Origin: Candidatus Tayloriibacteriota bacterium
GTDB lineage: Bacteria > Patescibacteriota > Minisyncoccia > Phycocordibacterales > PALSA-1337
Reading direction: 5' to 3'
Length of the DNA stretch: 64,000 nt
Assembly (NCBI GenBank): GCA_943350765.1
Contig: CALRAJ010000001.1
Span: forward strand, 191,066-255,065
The notes under the pieces are model-generated. The model saw nothing but the letters and a program-made list of their open reading frames with translations, was not told the DNA's origin and ran no database searches. Below, in pieces: positions 6,461 to 60,456 of this stretch; within the stretch, counting starts at the first letter, position 1, and each line of letters opens with the position of its first letter. Both the position numbers and the translations under genes were made by a program.

Positions 6461-6610
6461 CCAATTACGAAATACTTTTCTTGGCATATCTTTTAAAGGG
6501 TACGGATAAAAATTTACTAATTTTTTCCTGAAATCTCGGCTACCCGCCTGCGAACCCCCTTTAAAAGATACGCCTGCGACAGTATTTCGTAATTGGGGGT
6601 ACCTTAAAAT
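6461..6610. repeat. MITE-like modular repeat, family 2 copy
   Basis: Imperfect inverted terminal repeats of about 40 bp (CCCCCAATTACGAAATAC...TTTTAAAGGG / CCCTTTAAAAGATACGCC...GTATTTCGTAATTGGGGG) flank a core that recurs in inverted orientation at 14088-14212. Segments are also shared with 58021-58150 and 59070-59180. Confidence 0.6.
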
Positions 6611-10140: not shown

Positions 10141-10300
10141 ACCCAAACAAGCCGTAAAGGCTCGAGGAGTGGAGACGACGAAGATACAGGAGCCACATAT
10201 CGGTGGCGGGAGTACTGAGCTCAGTAGAGCGAATGTGACGGGCTAGCAAGACGCGTTACAAGCACGGTACACCGTTGAGCCTTTCCGCCAAACCACGCCC
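10141..10300. repeat. Dispersed intergenic repeat, family 1 copy A
   Basis: GAAGATACAGGAGCCACATATCGGTGGCGGGAGTACTGAGCTCAGTAGAGCGAATGTGACGG...GTTACAAGCACGG..GTTGAGCC. Near-identical copies lie at 54815-54945 (same orientation) and 27236-27350 (inverted). Related units lie at 20560-20720 and 51285-51425. Confidence 0.7.
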
Positions 10301-12878: not shown

Positions 12879-13061
12879 CCTAACTTGTGGATAAGACATG
12901 GTTTGCCAGCAGTGCATGTATATACCCTTTATTTAAGCCATATTTTGGTCTAAAGGCTCAACGGTACCCGTTGAGCCTTTGAAGCTATAAACGCTCTAAA
13001 AATAGCGAAATTGCTTTGCCAGACATTATGCTATAATAATCGCACCTATAAAAATACAAAT

Positions 13062-14057: not shown

Positions 14058-14087
14058 ATCTAGTGTGCTTACAAAAATCGTTGAAGG

Positions 14088-14212
14088 TGTATGTTTCTAA
14101 GGGGGTTCGCAAGCGCGACGGCGGGAGATTTCAGGAAAAAATTAGCAAATTTTTATCCGTACCCCGTCTACAGGTGCCTATCCCTAAACCATAGGCCTTA
14201 GAAACATATACC
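14088..14212. repeat. MITE-like modular repeat, family 2 copy (inverted relative to 6461-6610)
   Basis: Terminal inverted repeats ATGTTTCTAAGG / CCTTAGAAACAT enclose GGGGGTTCGCAAGCGCGACGGCGGGAGATTTCAGGAAAAAATTAGCAAATTTTTATCCGTA. This segment is nearly identical to the reverse complement of 6511-6570. Confidence 0.6.
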
Positions 14213-18990: not shown

Positions 18991-19836
18991 TCACCCGAGC
19001 ATATACAAATCCTGATTATACTCCCCGACCCCTATATACTCCGCCTCACCTTTAATGATTTTTTCAAATGGTTTACAGGCAAAACAACCGCCCTTACCCC
19101 TAGGACACTCATAAACCACAGATTCCCTAGCTGTCTTTACCTGCCTAGCAACTTCTATTACTTTTTTGTAGGATTCTTCGACAGAAGGTAGCTCGACAGC
19201 TATAGGTGCGTCATCCTTGTCCAAATACCAGTAGTAGGCACCTGTTACTTTTCTTTTCTGTAATTTATTCAAAAGTAGCTGGTAAATAGGTAGCTGGAGC
19301 GACTCGCCACTCTCCTCATTTTTACCAGTCTTAAAATCGAGTACTCGGATACTATCATCCTCTGGGACATACTCAAGCCAATCTATCTTTCCACAAAGAA
19401 TAATATTTTCTTCTTCCGATAGAAAAAAATTGGGTGGCATGTCATTATCACCGCCTTTTAATTTTAAAGCTTTATTTAAAAGTGGTCCAGGATTTCTCAA
19501 GACTCGCAAAATCATCTCCTTGCCACGATTTTTTGCCTCTAGCTCGTCAGTTTCGTTTTTAAAGCCACCAGCCTTGCCTCTGACTTTTTGCCAAGCCTTT
19601 TCATACAGCTCTAAAAGTGGCTGTTTGAATCTTTCCTCAGCTTTAAAATTTGCAAGGCCTTCTACAACCTCATGTACTGATACCCCGAGAGCTAGTGGTG
19701 GGCTAACGATATTTATTTTTCTTTTTGTTTTTGGATCCTTATATACATTATGCAAAAAATAGGCACGGGGACATTTGATAAAATCCCCCATTGATGAGTG
19801 CGACACCCACACAGCTTTATATTTGTCTTGAGCCAT
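18991..19836 (-). CDS. PD-(D/E)XK nuclease with a four-cysteine cluster (Cas4 / RecB-nuclease-like), standalone
   Basis: Motifs GKIDWLE (Asp), VLDFKTGK (D-x-K), QLPIYQLL (QxxxY), an N-terminal Cys (FIKCPRAY) and three C-terminal Cys (CPRGKGGCFAC), consistent with the Fe-S cluster of Cas4/AddB. No cas genes or CRISPR array are nearby. Confidence 0.55.
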   Translation of the reverse strand: MAQDKYKAVWVSHSSMGDFIKCPRAYFLHNVYKDPKTKRKINIVSPPLALGVSVHEVVEGLANFKAEERFKQPLLELYEKAWQKVRGKAGGFKNETDELEAKNRGKEMILRVLRNPGPLLNKALKLKGGDNDMPPNFFLSEEENIILCGKIDWLEYVPEDDSIRVLDFKTGKNEESGESLQLPIYQLLLNKLQKRKVTGAYYWYLDKDDAPIAVELPSVEESYKKVIEVARQVKTARESVVYECPRGKGGCFACKPFEKIIKGEAEYIGVGEYNQDLYMLG

Positions 19837-19924
19837 AGATCAGTATAGTTTAGCATACTGGAATAATAGTGCGGGGATTTGTTAAATTAAAAATGTTTTG
19901 CACAGAACAGATATAGAAAAAATA

Positions 19925-19972
19925 GACAAAAAAATAACCGCCGATATCTACACCTGTAGACTCAGCGGTTAC
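19925..19972 (-). terminator. Intrinsic terminator on the minus strand (hairpin AACCGCCGATATCTACACCTGTAGACTCAGCGGTT plus a T-run)
   Basis: Hairpin at 19936-19970. The A9 run at 19927-19935 becomes a U-run on the minus strand. Confidence 0.6.
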
Positions 19973-19975
19973 CAG

Positions 19976-20354
19976 AAAATTACCCTACAACGGTGGTATG
20001 CCGTTGCATCTGGTGGACGGGCCTGGATTTCTCACAGGATTCGGGGACTTATAAACTTCGCCCCCTTCATAACTTCATTCGAATTCCTTTCCGACAACTG
20101 ACGAGACTCGTCGCACCTCAATGGACGGTGTGCGACATGATTTCGCTAAATCAGCTGTCTATTTTTGGCCGTTTTGCGTAGACAATTTTCTCAGTGCTTT
20201 CGATTTTGCCTAGGTCGCACCCACCACTAGGCTGTCTTAATTGACTGACACAATCAGGTACATACACTCGATACGAATATGAATAAGTTTCATACTTTGT
20301 TAAGGAACAGCGTCGCTCTTGGCTGGACAACCTGTCGAAGTCTTAAGCTGACGG
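19976..20354 (-). ncRNA. Candidate non-coding RNA of unknown class (about 380 nt), with its own promoter and terminator
   Basis: No ORF longer than 20 aa in the RNA sense. It is bounded by a sigma70-like promoter (20360-20390) and an intrinsic terminator (19925-19972). The 3' part ends ...CCAGGCCCGTCCACCA. Identity (tmRNA, SRP RNA, 6S RNA or other) could not be established. Confidence 0.4.
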
Positions 20355-20359
20355 TAGAT

Positions 20360-20390
20360 ACAGTATAGCATATACAGATTATTTGTCAAG
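20360..20390 (-). promoter_or_regulatory. Sigma70-like promoter on the minus strand (TTGACA - 16 nt - TATACT)
   Basis: Reverse complement of 20384-20389 is TTGACA and of 20362-20367 is TATACT. Spacer is 16 nt. Confidence 0.45.
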
Positions 20391-20559
20391 CTTTTTTCAC
20401 ACTTTAGATCACTTTTAACAGTCAAATCTCTAAAATATGGCTCTAGATATAGCTATTCTCCAGACCTCCAAAATAGGTATGGTCGACAAAAATTGTATAA
20501 AATACCATCTATAAGGTTGCTTCGCTCTATTGGCCGATACCGAGGAAGATACCTCGGTA

Positions 20560-20720
20560 CGCAAGAGCCATACTGGTGGCGAAAGTCCTGAGCCTAGCAG
20601 GGCGTAGGGTAGGAGACACGACGGTGGCGGGCATGCTGAGCTCAGTAGAGCGTAGTACTCGATTTATATAGTCGCTCCGCTCCTTATAAATCGGTGCTTG
20701 CCCTACGCTTTGGTAAGCTC
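20560..20720. repeat. Dispersed intergenic repeat, family 1, composite copy D (tandem and inverted units)
   Basis: AGAGCCATACTGGTGGCGAAAGTCCTGAGCCTAGCAGGGCGTAGGGTA ... GGTGGCGGGCATGCTGAGCTCAGTAGAGCGTAGTACTCG ... TGCCCTACGCTTTGGTAAGCTCAGGACTTTCGGTGCC. Confidence 0.6.
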
Positions 20721-20781
20721 AGGACTTTCGGTGCCTTCGCACCTCTTGCATAAAAAACCTCATCAGCGTAGCATTATATAT

Positions 20782-21468
20782 ATGAAAAAAGTTGCGATTT
20801 TTGATGTAGACGGCACGATTTTCCGTTCGAGCTTGCTCATAAAGCTAGTTGAGGCTTTTGTTGTTGAAAAGGTTTTTCCGAGTACTGCTAAAGATGGCTA
20901 TGCCTTAGAACATAAACTCTGGCTCGAAAGAAAAGGAACTTATGATGAATACATCGAGGCGGTCATCGAGGTTTTTATGGAACATATCCGTGGAGTGTCA
21001 TACACAGACTTTGATAAAATAAGTAAAAATATAGTAGACAAGCACAAGGACGAAACCTATGTGTACACTCGCATGCTAGTCAGAAAACTTAAAAAACAGG
21101 GCTACTTTTTACTAGCAATTTCACAATCACCAAAAGGTATACTGGATGCTTTTTGTAAAAACCTGGGATTTGATAAAGTGTACGGGAGATTTTACGAAAC
21201 AGATGCCGATGATCATTTTACTGGCAAAGTAGCTGAGCTACATTTAATAGCCAACAAGGCAAATATCGTCAAAAGAGTTGTGGAAAAAGAAAACCTGACA
21301 CTCAAAGGTTCGGTATGTATCGGTGATACTGAGGGAGACATCCCCATGCTCGAGCTGGTAGACAATCCAATCTGCTTTAATCCAAACAAAAAGCTTTATC
21401 GTATTGCCAAACTCAATAAATGGAAAGTGGTAGTCGAAAGAAAAGATGTTGTGTATGAGATAATGTAG
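20782..21468 (+). CDS. HAD-superfamily hydrolase (phosphoserine-phosphatase-like, subfamily IB)
   Basis: HAD motif I (VAIFDVDGTI) and the C-terminal GDTEGDIPMLE (motif IV). The start was set at MKKVAIFD. Confidence 0.65.
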   Translation: MKKVAIFDVDGTIFRSSLLIKLVEAFVVEKVFPSTAKDGYALEHKLWLERKGTYDEYIEAVIEVFMEHIRGVSYTDFDKISKNIVDKHKDETYVYTRMLVRKLKKQGYFLLAISQSPKGILDAFCKNLGFDKVYGRFYETDADDHFTGKVAELHLIANKANIVKRVVEKENLTLKGSVCIGDTEGDIPMLELVDNPICFNPNKKLYRIAKLNKWKVVVERKDVVYEIM

Positions 21469-27214: not shown

Positions 27215-27235
27215 CAGTCAATACTCAGCAAAATC

Positions 27236-27350
27236 AACGGCTCAACAGGCCTGTGCTTGTAACGAGTTTTACTAAACCGGCACATTCGCTCTACTGAGCT
27301 CAGTACTCCCGCCACAAGTCATGGCTCCTGTATCTTCGTCACCTTCGCTC
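27236..27350. repeat. Dispersed intergenic repeat, family 1 copy B (inverted orientation)
   Basis: The reverse complement reads GACGAAGATACAGGAGCCATGACTTGTGGCGGGAGTACTGAGCTCAGTAGAGCGAATGTGCCGG..GTTACAAGCACAGGCCTGTTGAGCCGTTG. Confidence 0.65.
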
Positions 27351-27984
27351 CTTGAGCCGTTCAAATGGCTATACAGAGCCGTTTTATGAAGATTGGTAAG
27401 GACGAGTTTAAGGTGTGATTTGCCTCAATGGCTCAACCACACTGGTTGAGCCATTGAGGCAAAATACGGCATTATTTGAGGCTCACTTTCCATCCTCTAT
27501 ATATGTGGATAATAGAATTGACAGTAAAACTAAAAGTAGTACAGTAAACATTGGCATCTCCCCTAAATCCGATCACTTCAGTGAATAGGGTGAGGAGGTG
27601 GAGTTTGGAACAAACATTGGAGGTATTATGGAAGTAAAGCCCCTTAGTCTCATTGAACAAGTGTTGATTGAGGATCCCAAAAACATTGGTATCCTGTTCT
27701 ATTTTGAGAATTTGCTCGAAGAGAGTATCAGACTCACGGGTGGTTCCTGAAAAAACTTTTAACTCGCAAGCTATTTGGTAACTCGAATGGCTTTTTTTTA
27801 TATATAATTTTGCATGGTGTATTTGAACTAAAGTTTGCACATAAAGCCAAACAAGAGTAATATATACTACATTCAAAGATTGTTATGGCTACCAACCATA
27901 AATCCGCCAAAAGTGGATGACAAAATCCTAATTTGAAACAAATAATACCCTCTCCAATTAACGCTTGGACACTTATCTCATCAA

Positions 27985-44240: not shown

Positions 44241-44425
44241 AATAAAGTTTAGTCTCGTCCTATCCCCGTAGCAAGCTATACCCTCGGACTACCTCGGCGG
44301 GGTATTAGGCGAGACATCTGGGTAAACTTTGTTGTATAGGTGTCGGCTCCGCCGACTTCATCCTCATTCTTGCGGATTCATCCCCGCGGCAAGCCGTCGG
44401 GGTATTCTCCACAATTACAATAAAC
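44241..44425 (+). ncRNA. Conserved structured element of about 185 nt, copy 1 (unknown class)
   Basis: About 93% identical to 55016-55199 in the same orientation. Internal complementary segments include AAAGTTTAG/TAAACTTTG, GTCTCGTCC/GGCGAGAC, CCCCG/CGGGG and GTCGG/CCGAC. No ORF. Confidence 0.4.
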
Positions 44426-51200: not shown

Positions 51201-51260
51201 TAGCGTAATCGCGGAGGATGGACACTTTTTTTCTATCTTTATATGGTCGTATTGCTTCAT
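48237..51260 (-). CDS. leuS: Leucyl-tRNA synthetase with an extra inserted domain of about 150 aa
   Basis: HIGH region (PYPSGEGLHVGH), editing-domain motifs, AHDERDWEFA and KMSKR are present. Between AHDERDWEFAKKYNIPI and YKLRDWVFSRQRYWGEPIP there are about 200 aa, versus about 70 aa in E. coli LeuRS. The extra region includes HDFIMVLVGGMARLAQSDKKFGLHSDVDVFV. Confidence 0.85.
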   Translation of the reverse strand: MKQYDHIKIEKKCPSSAITLRHGKQKLAEYNHKRIEIKWQRIWERKKLYKTVEPKSADTAKNNKCYILDMFPYPSGEGLHVGHPKGYIATDVYSRFKRMQGFNVLHPMGFDAFGLPAENYAIKNKIHPSVAVKKNIKRYKEQLEIIGLDYDWSREVDTTDPEYYRWTQWIFLQLFKKGLAYESNEPINWCPSCKTGLANEDLEDGKCERCSSVVEKKPIRQWVLRITDYADRLLKDIDSLNWPESIKESQRNWIGRSEGSEISFAVEFENGGKPGLVPVFTTRADTLFGATALVLSPEHPWVTLAIDENHKGVLKNAESVGQYVALSKKKTEIERTDAGKEKTGVKLDGVWAINPATKEKIPMFIADYVLADYGTGAVMAVPAHDERDWEFAKKYNIPIRCVIKDEKNYSDTNKENNCKLLKEVFDLSRKHDFIMVLVGGMARLAQSDKKFGLHSDVDVFVTQNGWKIIEKQLADRGFNSKLSTGEKTGSHFWKNHKAFWSDKDGVWLDLFLLEEENGIYFDTIIGKKFVWGNNSVLEDVRVDNFDFTVPNKDLLNSIYQNLSSGWIECFTGEGLLTYSDKFDGLNSKEAKKKITEFVGGKMVTKYKLRDWVFSRQRYWGEPIPLVHCEKCALSNPAGQGVVAVPEKDLPVKLPNVKSYEPTGTGESPLATISKWVNTKCPQCKGPAKRETNTMPQWAGSSWYYLRYMDSKNKKALVDPKKEKYWAPVDLYVGGTEHATRHLIYARFWHKFLYDIGVVSTSEPFTELKNQGLIMGEDGRKMSKRFGNVVNPDDVMATYGADTFRVYEMFMGPFEQSIAWSTQNMIGSRRFLERVWKLGCRFTDTKHETVDRGLEAGTFEIVLNKTIKKVGEDIQGFSFNTAISSLMILLNAMEKTVVTEEQMGVLLQLLAPFAPHMAEELWSAMGNKNSIHIATWPVFDPEKLVEEMVTIAVQINGKVRGQIIVSKDSTEEVVKNQAQGIPEVKKWIDRQQIKKVIYVQGRVVNIVM

Positions 51261-51284
51261 AAGGACTAATAGTATACTAAATGG

Positions 51285-51425
51285 GAGCGGGAGCCAAGAG
51301 CCATACTGGTGGCGAAAGTCCTGAGCTTAGCAAAGCGTAGGGCAAGAGCCATACAGGAGCCATACTGGTGGCGGGAGTACTAAAGCTCACCAGAGCGTAG
51401 TACTGGTAGCGAAGATGCTGAGTTT
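51285..51425. repeat. Dispersed intergenic repeat, family 1, tandem-unit copy E
   Basis: Repeated units AGAGCCATACTGGTGGCG[AG][AG]AGT.CTGAGCT.AGCA.AGCGTAG, between two and three units. Confidence 0.6.
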
Positions 51426-54325: not shown

Positions 54326-54814
54326 AGGAACACACTATAACACAATTTTAATTAGGAATGAAATAATAAATACAAAAGGCGTCCGTGTGTGGACACGAAC
54401 GCCTGAGTGAGAACAGCCAAAATGGCCGTGAACGAAACGAATTTGCAACGAAATACTCAAAGCCCAGGGGCCTTTACCCTGTCCTGGCTTCCACAAACCA
54501 GGGGCTTGAGCCATTTCGCTGCTCCCAAAAAACAGGATGGAGTGATGCTCATAATACCAGCACTTTCAACCTGCTCGATCCGCAACTGATAATACATGCC
54601 CACAAGGAGCTCGTAGAAGAATCTCATAGCTTTCTTTCTGCGACCGACATACTTTATATCATACTGCATCACAAAATACAAGTATCTAAAAAAGAACTTG
54701 ATATTTTCAGTCCAAAGGCTAAACAATGTATGTTTGAGCCTTTGGGTCGTTTTTACCCCGAAATCTCATTACTGCCTATTCTGTAGGGTGCCTCTACAAA
54801 GCCATTTGAACGGC

Positions 54815-54945
54815 TCAAGGAGCGTAGGCGACGAAGATACAGGAGCCATATCGGTGGCGGGAGTAATGAGCTCAGCAGAGCGAATGTGACGGTCTAGTAG
54901 GATTCGTTACAAGCACAGGGCTGTTGAGCCGTTAGATTTTACCTA
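54815..54945. repeat. Dispersed intergenic repeat, family 1 copy C
   Basis: GACGAAGATACAGGAGCCATATCGGTGGCGGGAGTAATGAGCTCAGCAGAGCGAATGTGACGG..GTTACAAGCACAGGGCTGTTGAGCCGTTAG. Near-identical to copy A. Confidence 0.65.
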
Positions 54946-55015
54946 TATACATGGGTTTGAATAATACATACTAGAAAATTCATATCCGTCTTTTATAATT
55001 GCATGGTATTTAACA

Positions 55016-55199
55016 AATAAAGTTTAGCCTCGTCCTATCCCCGTAGCAAGCTATTCCCTCGGATTACCTCGGCGGGGTATTAGGCGAGACGACAGGGTAA
55101 ACTTTGTTGCAAGAGTGTCGGCTCCGCCGACCTCATCTTCATTCTTGCGGATTCATCCCCGCGGCAAGCCGTCGGGGTATTCTCCACAATTGCAATAAA
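55016..55199 (+). ncRNA. Conserved structured element of about 185 nt, copy 2 (unknown class)
   Basis: About 93% identical to 44241-44425. Substitutions cluster in predicted loop or bulge segments (for example ATCTGGG versus GACAGGG, and GTATAGG versus GCAAGAG). Confidence 0.4.
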
Positions 55200-58150: not shown

Positions 58151-58237
58151 CTACTGTAACAAAATGTACCGTATCCACAACATTGACAATACAGTACTAG
58201 TTATTATATAATAGATATGCCTTTGTGTTGGGTAGTC

Positions 58238-58805
58238 GCTCTTTTTGCTTAGGTAAAAAGGGAGGAAAGTCCGAACACTTACTCGATGAAAATCGAGAAC
58301 AGGTAGTGGGTAATCCCCATCTGGAGCAATCCACGAGGTGCGAGCAGAGACGCCGTGATCCGAAAGGGTCTGGCATCCCGATGCAAATCAGGATGAGCTT
58401 GTCTGGCAACAGACGAGGTGAAACGGCTAAACCCTTACCCGAGTGCAAGACCGTGTCAGCGCATCTCACAGAGTCGCGATGCAGTCAAAAGTCCATAGTC
58501 TAGAGCCTGGATCTAAATTCTTAACTTACGACTTTGCGGACTAAGTGCTTACTTATGACTACACCGAAGTTCTGTGAGGTGCGTTGAAGAGTCGCTTGAG
58601 CGTTGTGGTAACACATCGCCTAGAATAATGCCTATCGCCAATTTTGTTCACCGAAGGTGATTACAAAATTGAGCGTCCCGCCGAAGCCTTGGCGAAGGTG
58701 GACCCGCCTTCGTATGCAAACAAACTACGACGAGATACTCAATTTTGCACTACCTCCGGTGGGCAAAATTGGTACAGAATTCGGCTTATAGACACAAAGC
58801 GTACG
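58238..58805 (+). ncRNA. rnpB: RNase P RNA (bacterial type A-like), unusually long
   Basis: P4 strands GGGAGGAAAGTCCGAACAC (58261-58279) and ACAGAATTCGGCTTATAG (58774-58791). Additional matches are CCCGAGTGCAAG (P11/12 region) and CCTAGAATAATG (like CCUAGAUGAAUG). It is followed by an intrinsic terminator. About 130 extra nt lie between the P15/P18 region and the 3' P4 strand. Confidence 0.75.
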
Positions 58806-58841
58806 AAACTACCCGCGTAATGGCGGGTAGTTTCTTTTTAT
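58806..58841 (+). terminator. Rho-independent terminator after rnpB
   Basis: AAACTACCCGC-GTAATG-GCGGGTAGTTT followed by CTTTTTA. Confidence 0.6.
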
Positions 58842-59069
58842 ATACGATATCGAACACCTAGGTACCCTGAACTACGAAAATCTATTTAAAATATACACCT
58901 TCAAAGTATTTAGTGATTTGGGGTCATAAACTTAAACGGCTAAACACTAGCGTTTAGCCGTTTAAAGCTAGTACTAGAGCCATATTTTAGCCTAAAGGCT
59001 CAACGGCGCGCCGTTGAGCCTTTAAGCTATTTTCTCCTCCACCACCCACCTCCCCATAGAATCTAAAAA

Positions 59070-59193: not shown

Positions 59194-60456
59194 CTAATAA
59201 TTCCTCAACCTATTTACTCGCTCATGCTGTCGTATCTTTTCATGAGCTTTAGCCTCAATCTGACGGATACGCTCACGAGTGACACCAAACTCTTTACCTA
59301 CCTCCTCTAGAGTATGAGTAATACCGTCTACGAGTCCGTGTCGCATCTCTAGAATCTTGCGTTCTTTTGGTGATAAATCATCGAGTATTTCCTTTACCTG
59401 ATCAGTGAGTATTCGTCTAGAAGAGTCTTGGTCTGGAGAAAGGATTTTATCATCGGAAAGAAAATCTCCGAGAGTAGACTTGCCATCATCGCCATCATCG
59501 CCTACCGGCTGTTCGAGCGACACCGTATCCTGATCTATTTTTTCAATATTATATACTTTTTCAACTTCAAGACCCATTTCTACAGCAATCTCCTCGGCAA
59601 GAGGCTCTCGTCCCAAATCCTGTGAAAGTCTTCGTACAACCTGCTTATATTTTGCAATCGTCTCCACCATATGTACTGGCACTCGAATAGTACGGGACTG
59701 ATCAGCAAGGGCTCGGGTAATAGCTTGTCTGATCCACCATGTAGCGTAGGTAGAAAATTTGTAGCCTTTTGTCCAATCAAACTTATCCACTGCTTTAAAT
59801 AGACCGAGATTACCCTCTTGTATAAGGTCGAGTAGAGTGAGATCGGCACTTCGTCCGACATATTTTTTTGCTATTGAAACCACGAGACGCAAGTTTGCGC
59901 GAGCGAGCAAATTCTTTGCCTCTTCATCACCTCTCTCGATACGCTGGGCAAGCTCTTTTTCCTGTGTTCCTGGGATAAGTGGATACTGACCGATTTCCTT
60001 TAAATACATCTGGATAGAATCGTACGAGGAGTCACTTTTACCACCATATGTATACTTTTTTGAAACTACCTCTTCAGGCTCAACTTCCAAAAGTCCACCA
60101 CCCTCAAGCACATCTATTCCTGAAGTAGACAGCTTACTATACAAATCATCTAAAAACATTACATCTTGCTCTATATTTGGAAACTCCTTCAAAATCTCGT
60201 CGTATGTCACAAAGCCACGCTCCTTACCCTTTAAAAGTAGCTTTGTAGCCTTTAACTCCCATTCCTTTTTACTAGAACGCGCAGAATGACTAGGCTTTTT
60301 TATTTTTGCCTTTGCTTTTGTTTTAGCTTTTAACTTTTTTGGGCTAGACTTTTTATTTTGGCTTTTTTTTACAATTTTCTTTATATTTTTTTTCATTTTA
60401 TTTTTAGAGATTATGCGATTTTGCAGAATCATACCGTATATCAGACTTTGAAACAC
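59194..60456 (-). CDS. rpoD: RNA polymerase sigma factor RpoD (primary sigma-70)
   Basis: Region 2 ([40 protein letters not shown]), region 3, and region 4 ([23 protein letters not shown]). The N-terminus is lysine-rich. The start may be the internal MKKNIKK (60396). Confidence 0.85.

What the first reader, a model, noticed from the sequence alone, without database searches (positions are those of the whole stretch)
19925..20390. Orphan minus-strand non-coding transcription unit of about 380 nt, with a sigma70-like promoter and an intrinsic terminator
On the minus strand a near-consensus promoter (TTGACA-16-TATACT, 20360-20390) and a strong terminator (35-nt hairpin plus U9, 19925-19972) bracket about 380 nt. 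That stretch has no ORF above 20 codons but has multiple internal hairpins. Its 3' part ends ...AAATCCAGGCCCGTCCACCA, which is reminiscent of a tRNA-like CCA end, and the size fits tmRNA. However, I could not find a matching 5' acceptor strand or tag reading frame, so the class is unresolved. tmRNA, SRP RNA, 6S RNA or a novel sRNA are all possible. It sits immediately upstream of the Cas4-like nuclease gene.
Basis: seen in the sequence. Interest (0 to 1): 0.55.

Follow-up and report, generated by a model that had tools for sequence, protein, structure and literature searches.

The report
Species-specific orphan non-coding transcription unit
A strong promoter and a strong terminator really do bracket about 430 bases of non-coding DNA in this Parcubacteria (candidate phyla radiation) genome, but it is not tmRNA, SRP, 6S or any other known RNA: it lies in a roughly 900-base block found only in this species, and only a 45-base two-hairpin piece of it recurs elsewhere.

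Summary
The minus-strand promoter (TTGACA-16-TGcTATACT, 20389-20362) is the only site in the window with at least 11 of 12 matches plus an extended -10. It is followed by a weak and then a very strong intrinsic terminator (19973-19928), with no coding signal in between. However, a 59-codon TTG ORF exists, the transcript body folds no better than shuffles (z = -0.87), and the 'CCA end' has no acceptor partner.

Rfam (4227 families, E up to 10) and ARAGORN find nothing, so tmRNA, SRP, 6S, RNase P and group I intron are rejected.

The organism is a Parcubacteria/Taylorbacteria-like bacterium. Its closest sister species have only 67 bp, or an unrelated 434-aa gene, between the same nuclease and HAD genes. 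The 945-bp spacer is therefore a species-specific insertion, part of a genome-wide expansion of intergenic repeats.

A single metagenome scan recovered one homologous piece: a 45-nt two-hairpin module (20153-20109). It is 87% identical in a Nomurabacteria genome, with an invariant 13-nt loop and two compensatory stem changes. There it sits in a 3' UTR, and syntenic relatives lack it.

Best reading: an orphan, probably transcribed, species-specific non-coding RNA of unproven function. Interest is low to moderate.

The parts
20362..20389 (-). Sigma-70-type promoter: -35 TTGACA (20389-20384), 16-nt spacer with extended -10 TG, -10 TATACT (20367-20362). Predicted transcription start near 20355.
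   Evidence: 11/12, TG yes; only site in the window with at least 11/12 plus TG, 0.18 expected. rpoD is present in the window.
20010..20355 (-). Transcript body, about 345 nt. Non-coding and not significantly structured. Ends in ...CCAGGCCCGUCCACCAG.
   Evidence: z = -0.87. (no frame in the coding range). (59-aa TTG ORF with no ribosome-binding site). (no Rfam match). (no homologue in relatives, elsewhere in the window, or at protein level).
20109..20153 (-). Conserved 45-nt two-hairpin module. Ha: UGAUUU-AGCG-AAAUCA (20153-20138). H3: an 8-bp stem UGUCGCAC/GUGCGACG enclosing the 13-nt loop ACCGUCCAUUGAG (20137-20109).
   Evidence: 47 nt at 87% identity in four JGI contigs of a Nomurabacteria genome; 14/14 pairs kept, two compensatory changes plus one GC-to-GU; predicted fold.
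19986..20008 (-). Proximal terminator-like hairpin UGCAACGG-CAUACCA-CCGUUGUA followed by GGGUAAUUUU.
19928..19973 (-). Strong intrinsic terminator: an approximately 18-bp interrupted stem (19973-19933) followed by U7.
   Evidence: -23.4 kcal/mol, z = -6.8. Sequence.
19837..20781 (.). The 945-bp nuclease-HAD spacer, a species-specific insertion. It is 100% identical in other assemblies of the same species and replaced by 67 bp or by a 434-aa ORF in sister species.
   Evidence: L081-L084 identical. (L089 and L090 have a 67-bp spacer; L085-L088 and L002 have a 434/437-aa ORF with no similarity).
20514..20760 (.). Neighbouring 'Element 2': an extremely stable long hairpin built from copies of a dispersed species-specific intergenic repeat. 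It fills the rest of the inserted spacer, upstream of the HAD start codon at 20782.
   Evidence: z = -7.3 on the plus strand, -6.6 on the minus strand. (related copies at 51240-51404, 10155-10284, 27230-27377, 54792-54946; none in other species' loci).

Best explanation
The feature is an orphan, species-specific non-coding RNA gene.

SHOWN AT SEQUENCE LEVEL
- A near-consensus extended -10 sigma-70 promoter would start transcription near 20355 on the minus strand.
- Two tandem intrinsic terminators would stop it at about 19985 or about 19930. This gives an RNA of about 370-430 nt that is insulated from the nuclease gene downstream.
- The unit lies inside a roughly 900-bp block that was inserted between two divergent, closely spaced genes in this species only.
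- It is therefore not a housekeeping RNA.

INFERRED
- Most of the RNA is unstructured, lineage-specific scaffold.
- The one piece with evidence of constraint is a 45-nt two-hairpin module. Its 8-bp stem covaries while its 13-nt loop ACCGUCCAUUGAG is invariant.
- The hairpin presents this loop as a recognition surface, either for loop-loop or antisense pairing with another nucleic acid or for a protein.
- In both organisms that carry the module, it lies 85-140 nt upstream of a terminator on the transcribed strand.
For: - Promoter quality and rarity, with rpoD in the window.
- Other sites with at least 11/12 matches in the window are mostly intergenic, so this consensus appears to be used in this organism.
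- The terminator has z = -6.8 and is oriented for the minus strand only. Terminator-like sites occur at about twice the shuffled expectation in this genome.
- No coding signal and no protein-level similarity.
- The nuclease keeps a -10-like box (TATACT, 5 nt before its ATG), at about the position where relatives have TAGACT-N6-ATG. It therefore need not depend on the upstream promoter.
- Module homology extends 19 nt beyond the searched pattern.
- All 14 module pairs are kept, with two double compensatory changes and one GC-to-GU on the sense strand.
- The module has the same orientation relative to the upstream gene and the terminator in the Nomurabacteria locus.
Against: - No expression data.
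- The unit occurs in only one species. All five assemblies are 100% identical, so there is no comparative support for the RNA as a whole.
- The body is not more structured than shuffles.
- No target complementary to the loop was found in the 64-kb window.
- Covariation rests on two sequences. The search pattern itself allowed only transitions in the stem, and the shuffle control is not significant (136/500).
- The module is sporadic. It is absent from syntenic relatives of the Nomurabacteria locus and from about 770 kb of Parcubacteria DNA. That pattern fits a selfish or mobile element as well as a functional one.
- The surrounding spacer is made of repeat debris.
Confidence: 0.4

Rival explanations
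1. The feature is non-functional insertion debris. The 945-bp spacer accumulated mobile or repeat-derived DNA during a species-specific repeat expansion. The promoter and terminators are relics carried in with that DNA, or serve only to insulate the two flanking genes. The 45-nt module is a tiny selfish element that works as single-stranded DNA, for example as a hairpin target of a HUH/Y1 enzyme, rather than as RNA.
For: - Sister species have a 67-bp spacer or an unrelated ORF at this site, so the position is an insertion hot spot.
- The window is full of species-specific intergenic repeat families, one of which forms Element 2 next door.
- The transcript body is unstructured and has no homologue.
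- In Nomurabacteria the module is a clean 45-nt indel relative to L099. There it lies about 230 nt upstream of a Y1_Tnp (IS200/RAYT-like) gene flanked by GTAG-type REP hairpins.
- A stem that covaries around an invariant loop is also the signature of HUH nick sites (established knowledge of rolling-circle origins and IS200/IS605 ends).
Against: - A promoter of this quality with TG is expected 0.18 times per window by chance, and it is matched by two correctly oriented terminators.
- No Y1 transposase is detectable in the window.
- The module shows no similarity to the REP hairpins that flank the Y1 gene (read).
- The module was found as one copy per genome stretch examined, not in many copies.
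- The GC-to-GU change keeps pairing only on the sense strand.
Confidence: 0.3
2. The feature is a long regulated 5' leader of the PD-(D/E)XK nuclease gene. The strong promoter at 20389 drives the nuclease, and the two terminators act as an attenuator or riboswitch-like switch.
For: - The nuclease (19836-18991) is the first gene downstream on the same strand.
- The duplicated GGUGCGAC (20221-20214 and 20117-20110) could offer alternative partners for GUCGCAC.
Against: - No Rfam cis-regulatory match.
- Orthologous nuclease genes in sister species are expressed from within a 67-bp spacer, and the window keeps a -10-like box right before the ATG.
- The distal terminator is very stable, and no evident antiterminator overlaps it.
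- Repeats of 7-8 nt within 400 nt are expected by chance.
Confidence: 0.07
3. The feature is the remnant of a lost protein-coding gene, or an mRNA for a small protein such as the 59-aa TTG ORF (20330-20151) or the 18-aa ORF at 20293.
For: - ORFs of 18-59 aa exist on the transcribed strand.
- The unit has the size and punctuation of a small gene.
Against: - Codon-usage log-likelihood stays below the 10th percentile of true frames in the three frames of the transcribed strand; the best plus-strand 120-nt window only ties it (0.11 vs 0.109).
- No Shine-Dalgarno sequence, and no AUG at the predicted start.
- No tblastn or tblastx similarity to the 434-aa gene that occupies this site in relatives, or to anything in about 700 kb of related DNA.
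Confidence: 0.08
4. The feature is a divergent housekeeping or catalytic RNA: tmRNA (standard or permuted), a tRNA-like element, SRP RNA, 6S RNA, RNase P RNA, or a group I intron in a tRNA gene, as recently described for Patescibacteria (PMC13011429).
For: - The 3' part ends ...GUCCACCA, as tmRNA and tRNA-Ala do. It follows a hairpin with a 5-position stem (4 bp plus a U-C mismatch) and a 7-nt loop, which is T-arm geometry.
- UUCGACAGG near the 5' end resembles the tmRNA 5' region (read).
- The size fits.
Against: - ARAGORN finds nothing.
- Rfam finds nothing, even at E up to 10 on small search spaces.
- No 5' acceptor strand complementary to CCCGUCC.
- The T-loop is GAGAAAU.
- No tag reading frame with a typical C-terminus.
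- Body z = -0.87.
- Absent from sister species and from 80 related loci.
Confidence: 0.02

Closest known systems
Orphan (species- or strain-specific) trans-acting bacterial sRNA genes
   Same: A stand-alone intergenic unit with a sigma-70 promoter and a Rho-independent terminator. It is non-coding, a few hundred nt long, restricted to one lineage, and has a short conserved single-stranded or loop segment as the likely active part.
   Different: - At about 370-430 nt it is long for a base-pairing sRNA.
- No chaperone system such as Hfq or ProQ is known for Patescibacteria.
- No target was found.
- No expression data.
3'-UTR-embedded or 3'-UTR-derived regulatory RNAs (CpxQ/SdhX type)
   Same: In the Nomurabacteria locus the shared module lies in sense orientation between the stop codon of a 1085-aa surface-protein gene and its terminator. 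In the window it likewise lies in the terminator-proximal part of the transcript.
   Different: - The window copy has its own promoter and no upstream ORF.
- Nothing is shown about processing or function.
tmRNA (SsrA)
   Same: Size, the terminal ...UCCACCA, a hairpin of T-arm geometry just before it, and a UUCGAC-like 5' motif.
   Different: - No acceptor stem, no canonical T-loop, no tag ORF and no pseudoknot-rich fold.
- No ARAGORN or Rfam hit.
- Not conserved in relatives.
Hairpin substrates of HUH/Y1 enzymes (IS200/IS605 ends and their PATE derivatives, REP/RAYT, rolling-circle nick sites)
   Same: - The module is a small hairpin with an invariant loop and a covarying stem.
- It behaves as a discrete 45-nt indel.
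- In one genome it sits next to a Y1_Tnp gene.
   Different: - No GTAG REP head and no similarity to the REP hairpins flanking that gene.
- Single copy where seen.
- No transposase in the window.
- Both copies are in sense orientation relative to transcription.
MITE- or REPIN-like intergenic repeat expansions
   Same: The spacer that holds the unit includes a member of dispersed, species-specific, highly structured repeat families.
   Different: The promoter-terminator unit itself is single copy in the approximately 78 kb of this genome that could be read.

Membership tests
tmRNA (standard or permuted) | tRNA-like domain: a 7-bp acceptor stem joining the 5' and 3' ends (G3-U70, A73, CCA) and a T-arm with a UUCRANN loop | tested here: not met
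   The 3' strand CCCGUCC-A-CCA is present, but no GGRYGGG partner exists in 19925-20400. The T-loop is GAGAAAU. ARAGORN reports 0 genes in the window.
tmRNA (standard or permuted) | Match to tmRNA covariance models, with a tag reading frame and pseudoknots | tested here: not met
   No tmRNA-clan hit at gathering score or at E up to 10. The candidate frames end ...KRPKIDS or ...QNGQK (read). Body z = -0.87.
SRP RNA / 6S RNA / RNase P RNA | Match to the Rfam covariance model (SRP domain IV; 6S closing stem and central bubble; RNase P P4/CR-I to CR-V) | tested here: not met
   No hit on either strand at E up to 10 in 19500-21000, nor at gathering score in the whole window.
SRP RNA / 6S RNA / RNase P RNA | Conservation across related genomes, as expected for a housekeeping RNA | tested here: not met
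   No nhmmer or blastn similarity in 80 related loci. Sister species have a 67-bp spacer at this site.
Group I intron in a tRNA gene (Patescibacteria type, PMC13011429) | tRNA exons flanking an intron with a group I core (P3-P9), detectable by RF00028 | tested here: not met
   No Intron_gpI hit at E up to 10. No 5' exon or acceptor strand, and no D-arm. Caveat: subgroup IA introns are detected less well by RF00028.
Independent bacterial sRNA gene | Own promoter and own Rho-independent terminator in an intergenic region, on one strand | tested here: met
Independent bacterial sRNA gene | No protein-coding capacity | tested here: met
   Codon-usage scan. ORF contexts. No protein-level similarity.
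Independent bacterial sRNA gene | Detected transcript with defined ends | not testable with these tools
   No transcriptome data are available here.
Independent bacterial sRNA gene | Conservation or covariation across species | tested here: inconclusive
   The whole unit is in one species only, with identical copies. The 45-nt module is shared with one other genome, with two compensatory pairs, but n = 2.
IS200/IS605-derived PATE or REP/RAYT element | Subterminal hairpins related to those flanking a Y1 transposase (a GTAG head for REPs), usually in multiple copies | tested here: not met
   The module lacks GTAG and does not resemble the AAAGGACGGTCCTTT hairpins beside the Y1_Tnp gene in L097. 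No Y1 gene in the window. No further copies.
IS200/IS605-derived PATE or REP/RAYT element | Presence/absence polymorphism at precise boundaries | tested here: inconclusive
   There is a 45-nt indel between L097 and syntenic L099 exactly at the module boundaries. A deletion between the ACGA direct repeats would explain it equally well.

The most novel reading that the evidence does not exclude
The 45-nt two-hairpin module (UGAUUU-AGCG-AAAUCA followed by an 8-bp stem presenting the invariant loop ACCGUCCAUUGAG) is an undescribed, horizontally mobile functional RNA motif of Parcubacteria. It is carried in the terminator-proximal part of transcripts. The window's unit would then be a stand-alone sRNA built around it, acting through loop-mediated recognition of a conserved RNA or protein partner.
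Probability: 0.2. Interest if true: 0.55.

Novelty: new member of a known kind. Interest (0 to 1): 0.25.

Why it matters
If the unit is transcribed, it would be one of very few candidate regulatory RNAs proposed for Patescibacteria. These organisms have tiny genomes, where about 900 bp of non-coding DNA between two genes is unusual, and essentially no sRNA biology is known for them.

The more transferable result is negative. The tmRNA-like 'CCACCA' end is a coincidence, and the element is a species-specific insertion, so it should not be annotated as a housekeeping RNA.

The shared 45-nt module and the species-specific repeat expansion around it are small leads. They bear on how non-coding DNA is gained in otherwise streamlined genomes.

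Tried and rejected
KNOWN RNA CLASSES
- Rfam at gathering score on the whole window, and at E up to 10 on 19500-21000 and 20090-20170: only noise.
- ARAGORN on the window: no tRNA or tmRNA.
- Manual search for an acceptor partner, a T-loop, a tag ORF, RNase P P4 and group I P/Q/R/S elements: none.

HOMOLOGUES BY SYNTENY
- 80 genome loci around nuclease orthologues: no similarity by nhmmer or blastn.
- HAD-anchored loci: identical copies in the same species only; sister species lack the block.

PSEUDOGENE IDEA
- tblastn with the 434/437-aa protein that occupies the site in relatives, and tblastx against all loci: nothing.
- Codon-usage scan: negative.

OTHER COLLECTIONS
- Phage and plasmid collections, blastn in 'distant' mode: no match.
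- Viral contig pattern scans (four): only chance hits in high-GC coding DNA.

MORE COPIES OF THE MODULE
- Loop-plus-stem script, and covariance model R1 on the window (filters off) and on 93 loci: none.
- Y1_Tnp-anchored relatives of the Nomurabacteria locus (L099-L110): module absent.
- 14 kb beyond the window ends: no further copy.

OTHER CHECKS
- Internal repeats GGUGCGAC and CCGUCCA: within chance for 7-8-mers in 400 nt.
- Target search for the complement of the loop in the window: fewer near-matches than expected.
- Literature: no description of such an RNA. The only relevant paper is on group I introns in Patescibacteria tRNA genes.

Full report
1. THE OBSERVATION

Promoter. On the minus strand, TTGACA (20389-20384), a 16-nt spacer that contains TG one base before the -10, and TATACT (20367-20362) match the sigma-70 consensus at 11 of 12 positions. 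I rescanned the whole window. Six sites reach 11/12, against 1.7 in first-order Markov simulations, and five of the six are intergenic. Only this site also has the extended -10 TG, for which 0.18 are expected per window. The window itself encodes RpoD with regions 1-4 (59194-60456). The promoter prediction is therefore good.

Terminators. About 345 nt downstream lies a terminator-like hairpin (20008-19986). A very stable hairpin follows at 19973-19933 (-23.4 kcal/mol, z = -6.8) and is followed by seven U. The T-run follows the hairpin only on the minus strand. Something transcribed on the minus strand is therefore meant to stop there, and the HAD gene upstream is on the other strand.

Claims that do not hold:
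- ORFs of 59 aa (TTG, 20330-20151) and of 62-67 aa exist, although none has coding character.
- The body 20355-20010 folds no better than shuffled sequence: z = -0.87 on the minus strand and -0.03 on the plus strand. The 'multiple internal hairpins' are what chance gives.
- The ...GUCCACCA end follows a hairpin of T-arm geometry. But that hairpin has a non-canonical loop, and there is no 5' acceptor strand anywhere in the unit.

2. WHAT IT IS NOT

- ARAGORN finds no tRNA or tmRNA in the 64 kb.
- Rfam 15 gives no hit at gathering score in the window.
- Rfam gives nothing but noise at E up to 10 in 19500-21000 and 20090-20170.

[quoted passage not shown] I considered the recently described group I introns that hide tRNA genes in Patescibacteria (PMC13011429), because exon-plus-intron size would fit. 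There is no 5' exon, no D-arm and no intron core.

3. ORGANISM AND LOCUS HISTORY

The downstream PD-(D/E)XK nuclease has over 250 relatives in Patescibacteria genomes labelled Taylorbacteria, Staskawiczbacteria and Paceibacterota. The best is 86% identical. None of the 80 loci fetched shows any similarity to the unit.

The upstream neighbour is a HAD-IB hydrolase whose real start is 20782. It recovered other assemblies of the same species, in which the 945-bp spacer is 100% identical. It also recovered the nearest other species, at 83-85% protein identity.
- In L089 and L090 the nuclease and HAD genes are divergent and only 67 bp apart.
- In L085-L088 and L002 an unrelated 434/437-aa ORF sits between them.

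The whole block from about 19860 to 20765 is therefore a species-specific insertion at a variable site. The relatives carry TAGACT-N6-ATG in front of the nuclease, and the window keeps TATACT-N5-ATG. The nuclease thus probably retains its own, possibly leaderless, promoter. Its adjacency to the unit is incidental.

4. THE REST OF THE SPACER

Positions 20514-20760 form an extraordinarily stable long hairpin: z = -7.3 on the plus strand and -6.6 on the minus strand. It is built from copies of a repeat that recurs at 51240-51404, 10155-10284, 27230-27377 and 54792-54946. Several other repeat families link the unusually long intergenic regions of this window. None occurs in about 95 loci from other Paceibacteria. 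The genome has thus undergone a private expansion of intergenic repeats. The promoter-terminator unit itself is single copy in the window and in 14 kb beyond its ends.

5. THE ONE HOMOLOGOUS PIECE

Sequence searches in phages, plasmids and viral contigs gave nothing. For the single metagenome scan I used the most confidently predicted hairpin, with its 13-nt loop exact and its stem in R/Y code. The scan returned four near-identical JGI contigs. They belong to a genome whose neighbouring Y1_Tnp protein (cluster P0121) is attributed to 'Candidatus Nomurabacteria bacterium CG2_30_43_9'.

Similarity runs over 47 nt at 87% identity, 19 nt beyond the pattern. That defines a module at 20153-20109:
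- Ha: UGAUUU-AGCG-AAAUCA.
- H3: UGUCGCAC-ACCGUCCAUUGAG-GUGCGACG.

In the other genome the loop is identical and all 14 pairs are kept. A-U becomes G-C, C-G becomes U-A, and G-C becomes G-U. This is suggestive, but it rests on two sequences and on a pattern that tolerated only transitions. The shuffle control is not significant.

In that genome the module lies in sense orientation 35 nt after the stop codon of a 1085-aa surface-protein gene and 85 nt before its terminator. GTAG-type REP hairpins and a 223-aa Y1_Tnp (IS200/RAYT-like) gene follow. No flanking similarity to the window exists.

Relatives that keep this synteny lack the module (L099, L104, L109, L110). Against L099 it is a clean 45-nt indel. 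A covariance model of the module finds no further copy in the window or in 705 kb of loci. The module is therefore rare and sporadic.

6. INTERPRETATION

Shown at sequence level:
- A good promoter, good terminators and non-coding content.
- Species-specific insertion.
- No membership in any curated RNA family.
- One 45-nt module under some constraint or recently transferred.

Inferred: the unit is transcribed as an RNA of about 370-430 nt, and the module's hairpin-displayed loop is its active part.

I put 0.4 on 'orphan, expressed, species-specific non-coding RNA whose functional core is the module'. I put 0.3 on 'functionless insertion debris with a relic promoter and terminator, the module being a selfish ssDNA hairpin element, perhaps a HUH/Y1 substrate'. 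Small weights go to a nuclease leader or attenuator (0.07), a decayed gene or small-protein mRNA (0.08), and a divergent known RNA (0.02).

7. NOVELTY AND SCORE

As a kind of thing, an orphan sRNA-like unit in a variable intergenic site, this is ordinary. It would be a new member of a known kind. The residual interest lies in the 45-nt module and in the repeat expansion in a streamlined Patescibacteria genome. Overall interest is 0.25.

Noticed in passing
window 20514-20760: An extremely stable, roughly 245-nt long-hairpin element immediately upstream of the HAD gene (true ATG at 20782). z = -7.3 on the plus strand and -6.6 on the minus strand; arms at 20580-20609 and 20701-20730. No Rfam hit. 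It is built from tandem and inverted copies of a dispersed repeat core (GGTGGCG...CTGAGCTCAGTAGAGCG).
   Followed up: partly
window 10155-10284 (+), 27230-27377 (-), 54792-54946 (+), 51240-51404 (+): A species-specific intergenic repeat family of about 110-155 nt, 84-88% identical between copies. Its core resembles the 5' half of a tRNA (GGCGGGAGTA-CTGAGCTCAGT-AGAGCG), yet ARAGORN finds no tRNA in the window. It is absent from about 95 loci of other Paceibacteria.
   Followed up: partly
window 44241-44424 and 55016-55199; also 14085-14164 ~ 6498-6575 and 12936-12988 ~ 58978-59030: Further dispersed intergenic repeat families (184 nt at 93% identity, and others). The window has many intergenic regions of 400-900 nt, which is unusual for a streamlined Patescibacteria genome.
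   Followed up: no
L085 2576-3880 (-), L002 2506-3819 (+): In sister species the nuclease-HAD site holds a 434/437-aa charged protein that looks coiled-coil, with no Pfam match. Those species also carry a DoxX gene between the SIMPL and nuclease genes that the window lacks. This marks the locus as an insertion/deletion hot spot.
   Followed up: partly
window 19836-19856 (-); L089/L090 3934-3950; L085 2395-2411: The nuclease orthologues carry a conserved TAGACT-N6-ATG (TATACT-N5-ATG in the window). The HAD genes have a similar -10-like box a few nt before their ATG and no Shine-Dalgarno sequence. This suggests leaderless or near-leaderless mRNAs.
   Followed up: no
L097 4380-5290 (-); also L099, L101, L104, L109, L110: A Y1_Tnp (IS200/RAYT-like) gene of about 222 aa is widespread in Parcubacteria (3178 homologues at E up to 1e-15). 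Several relatives (L099, L104, L109) keep the downstream synteny. Each orthologue is flanked by its own perfect hairpins (GTAG-AAAGGACGGTCCTTT-CTAC in L097), which is the pattern of REP/RAYT pairs.
   Followed up: partly
L097 5240-5330 (-), L099 1800-1870, L104 1-70: A conserved stretch (ACCCAAACGAAACTAACYTCAATTCAGMAAAAG) directly precedes the terminator upstream of the Y1_Tnp gene (after the surface-protein gene in L097 and L099). It is shared by three Nomurabacteria-like genomes and may be a 3'-UTR element of its own.
   Followed up: no
window 58183-58212 (+) and 39006-38977 (-): Two perfect 12/12 sigma-70 consensus promoters lie in intergenic regions. The first precedes a small 92-aa ORF, and two strong terminators lie at 58805-58834 and 58993-59024.
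   Followed up: no
window 20137-20117 (-); L097 5399-5379 (-): The conserved module contains a 6-codon mini-ORF, AUG UCG CAC ACC GUC CAU UGA (MSHTVH; MSRTVH in the other genome), with no Shine-Dalgarno sequence. It is probably incidental to the hairpin, because the variable codon is the one that covaries with the opposite stem arm.
   Followed up: no
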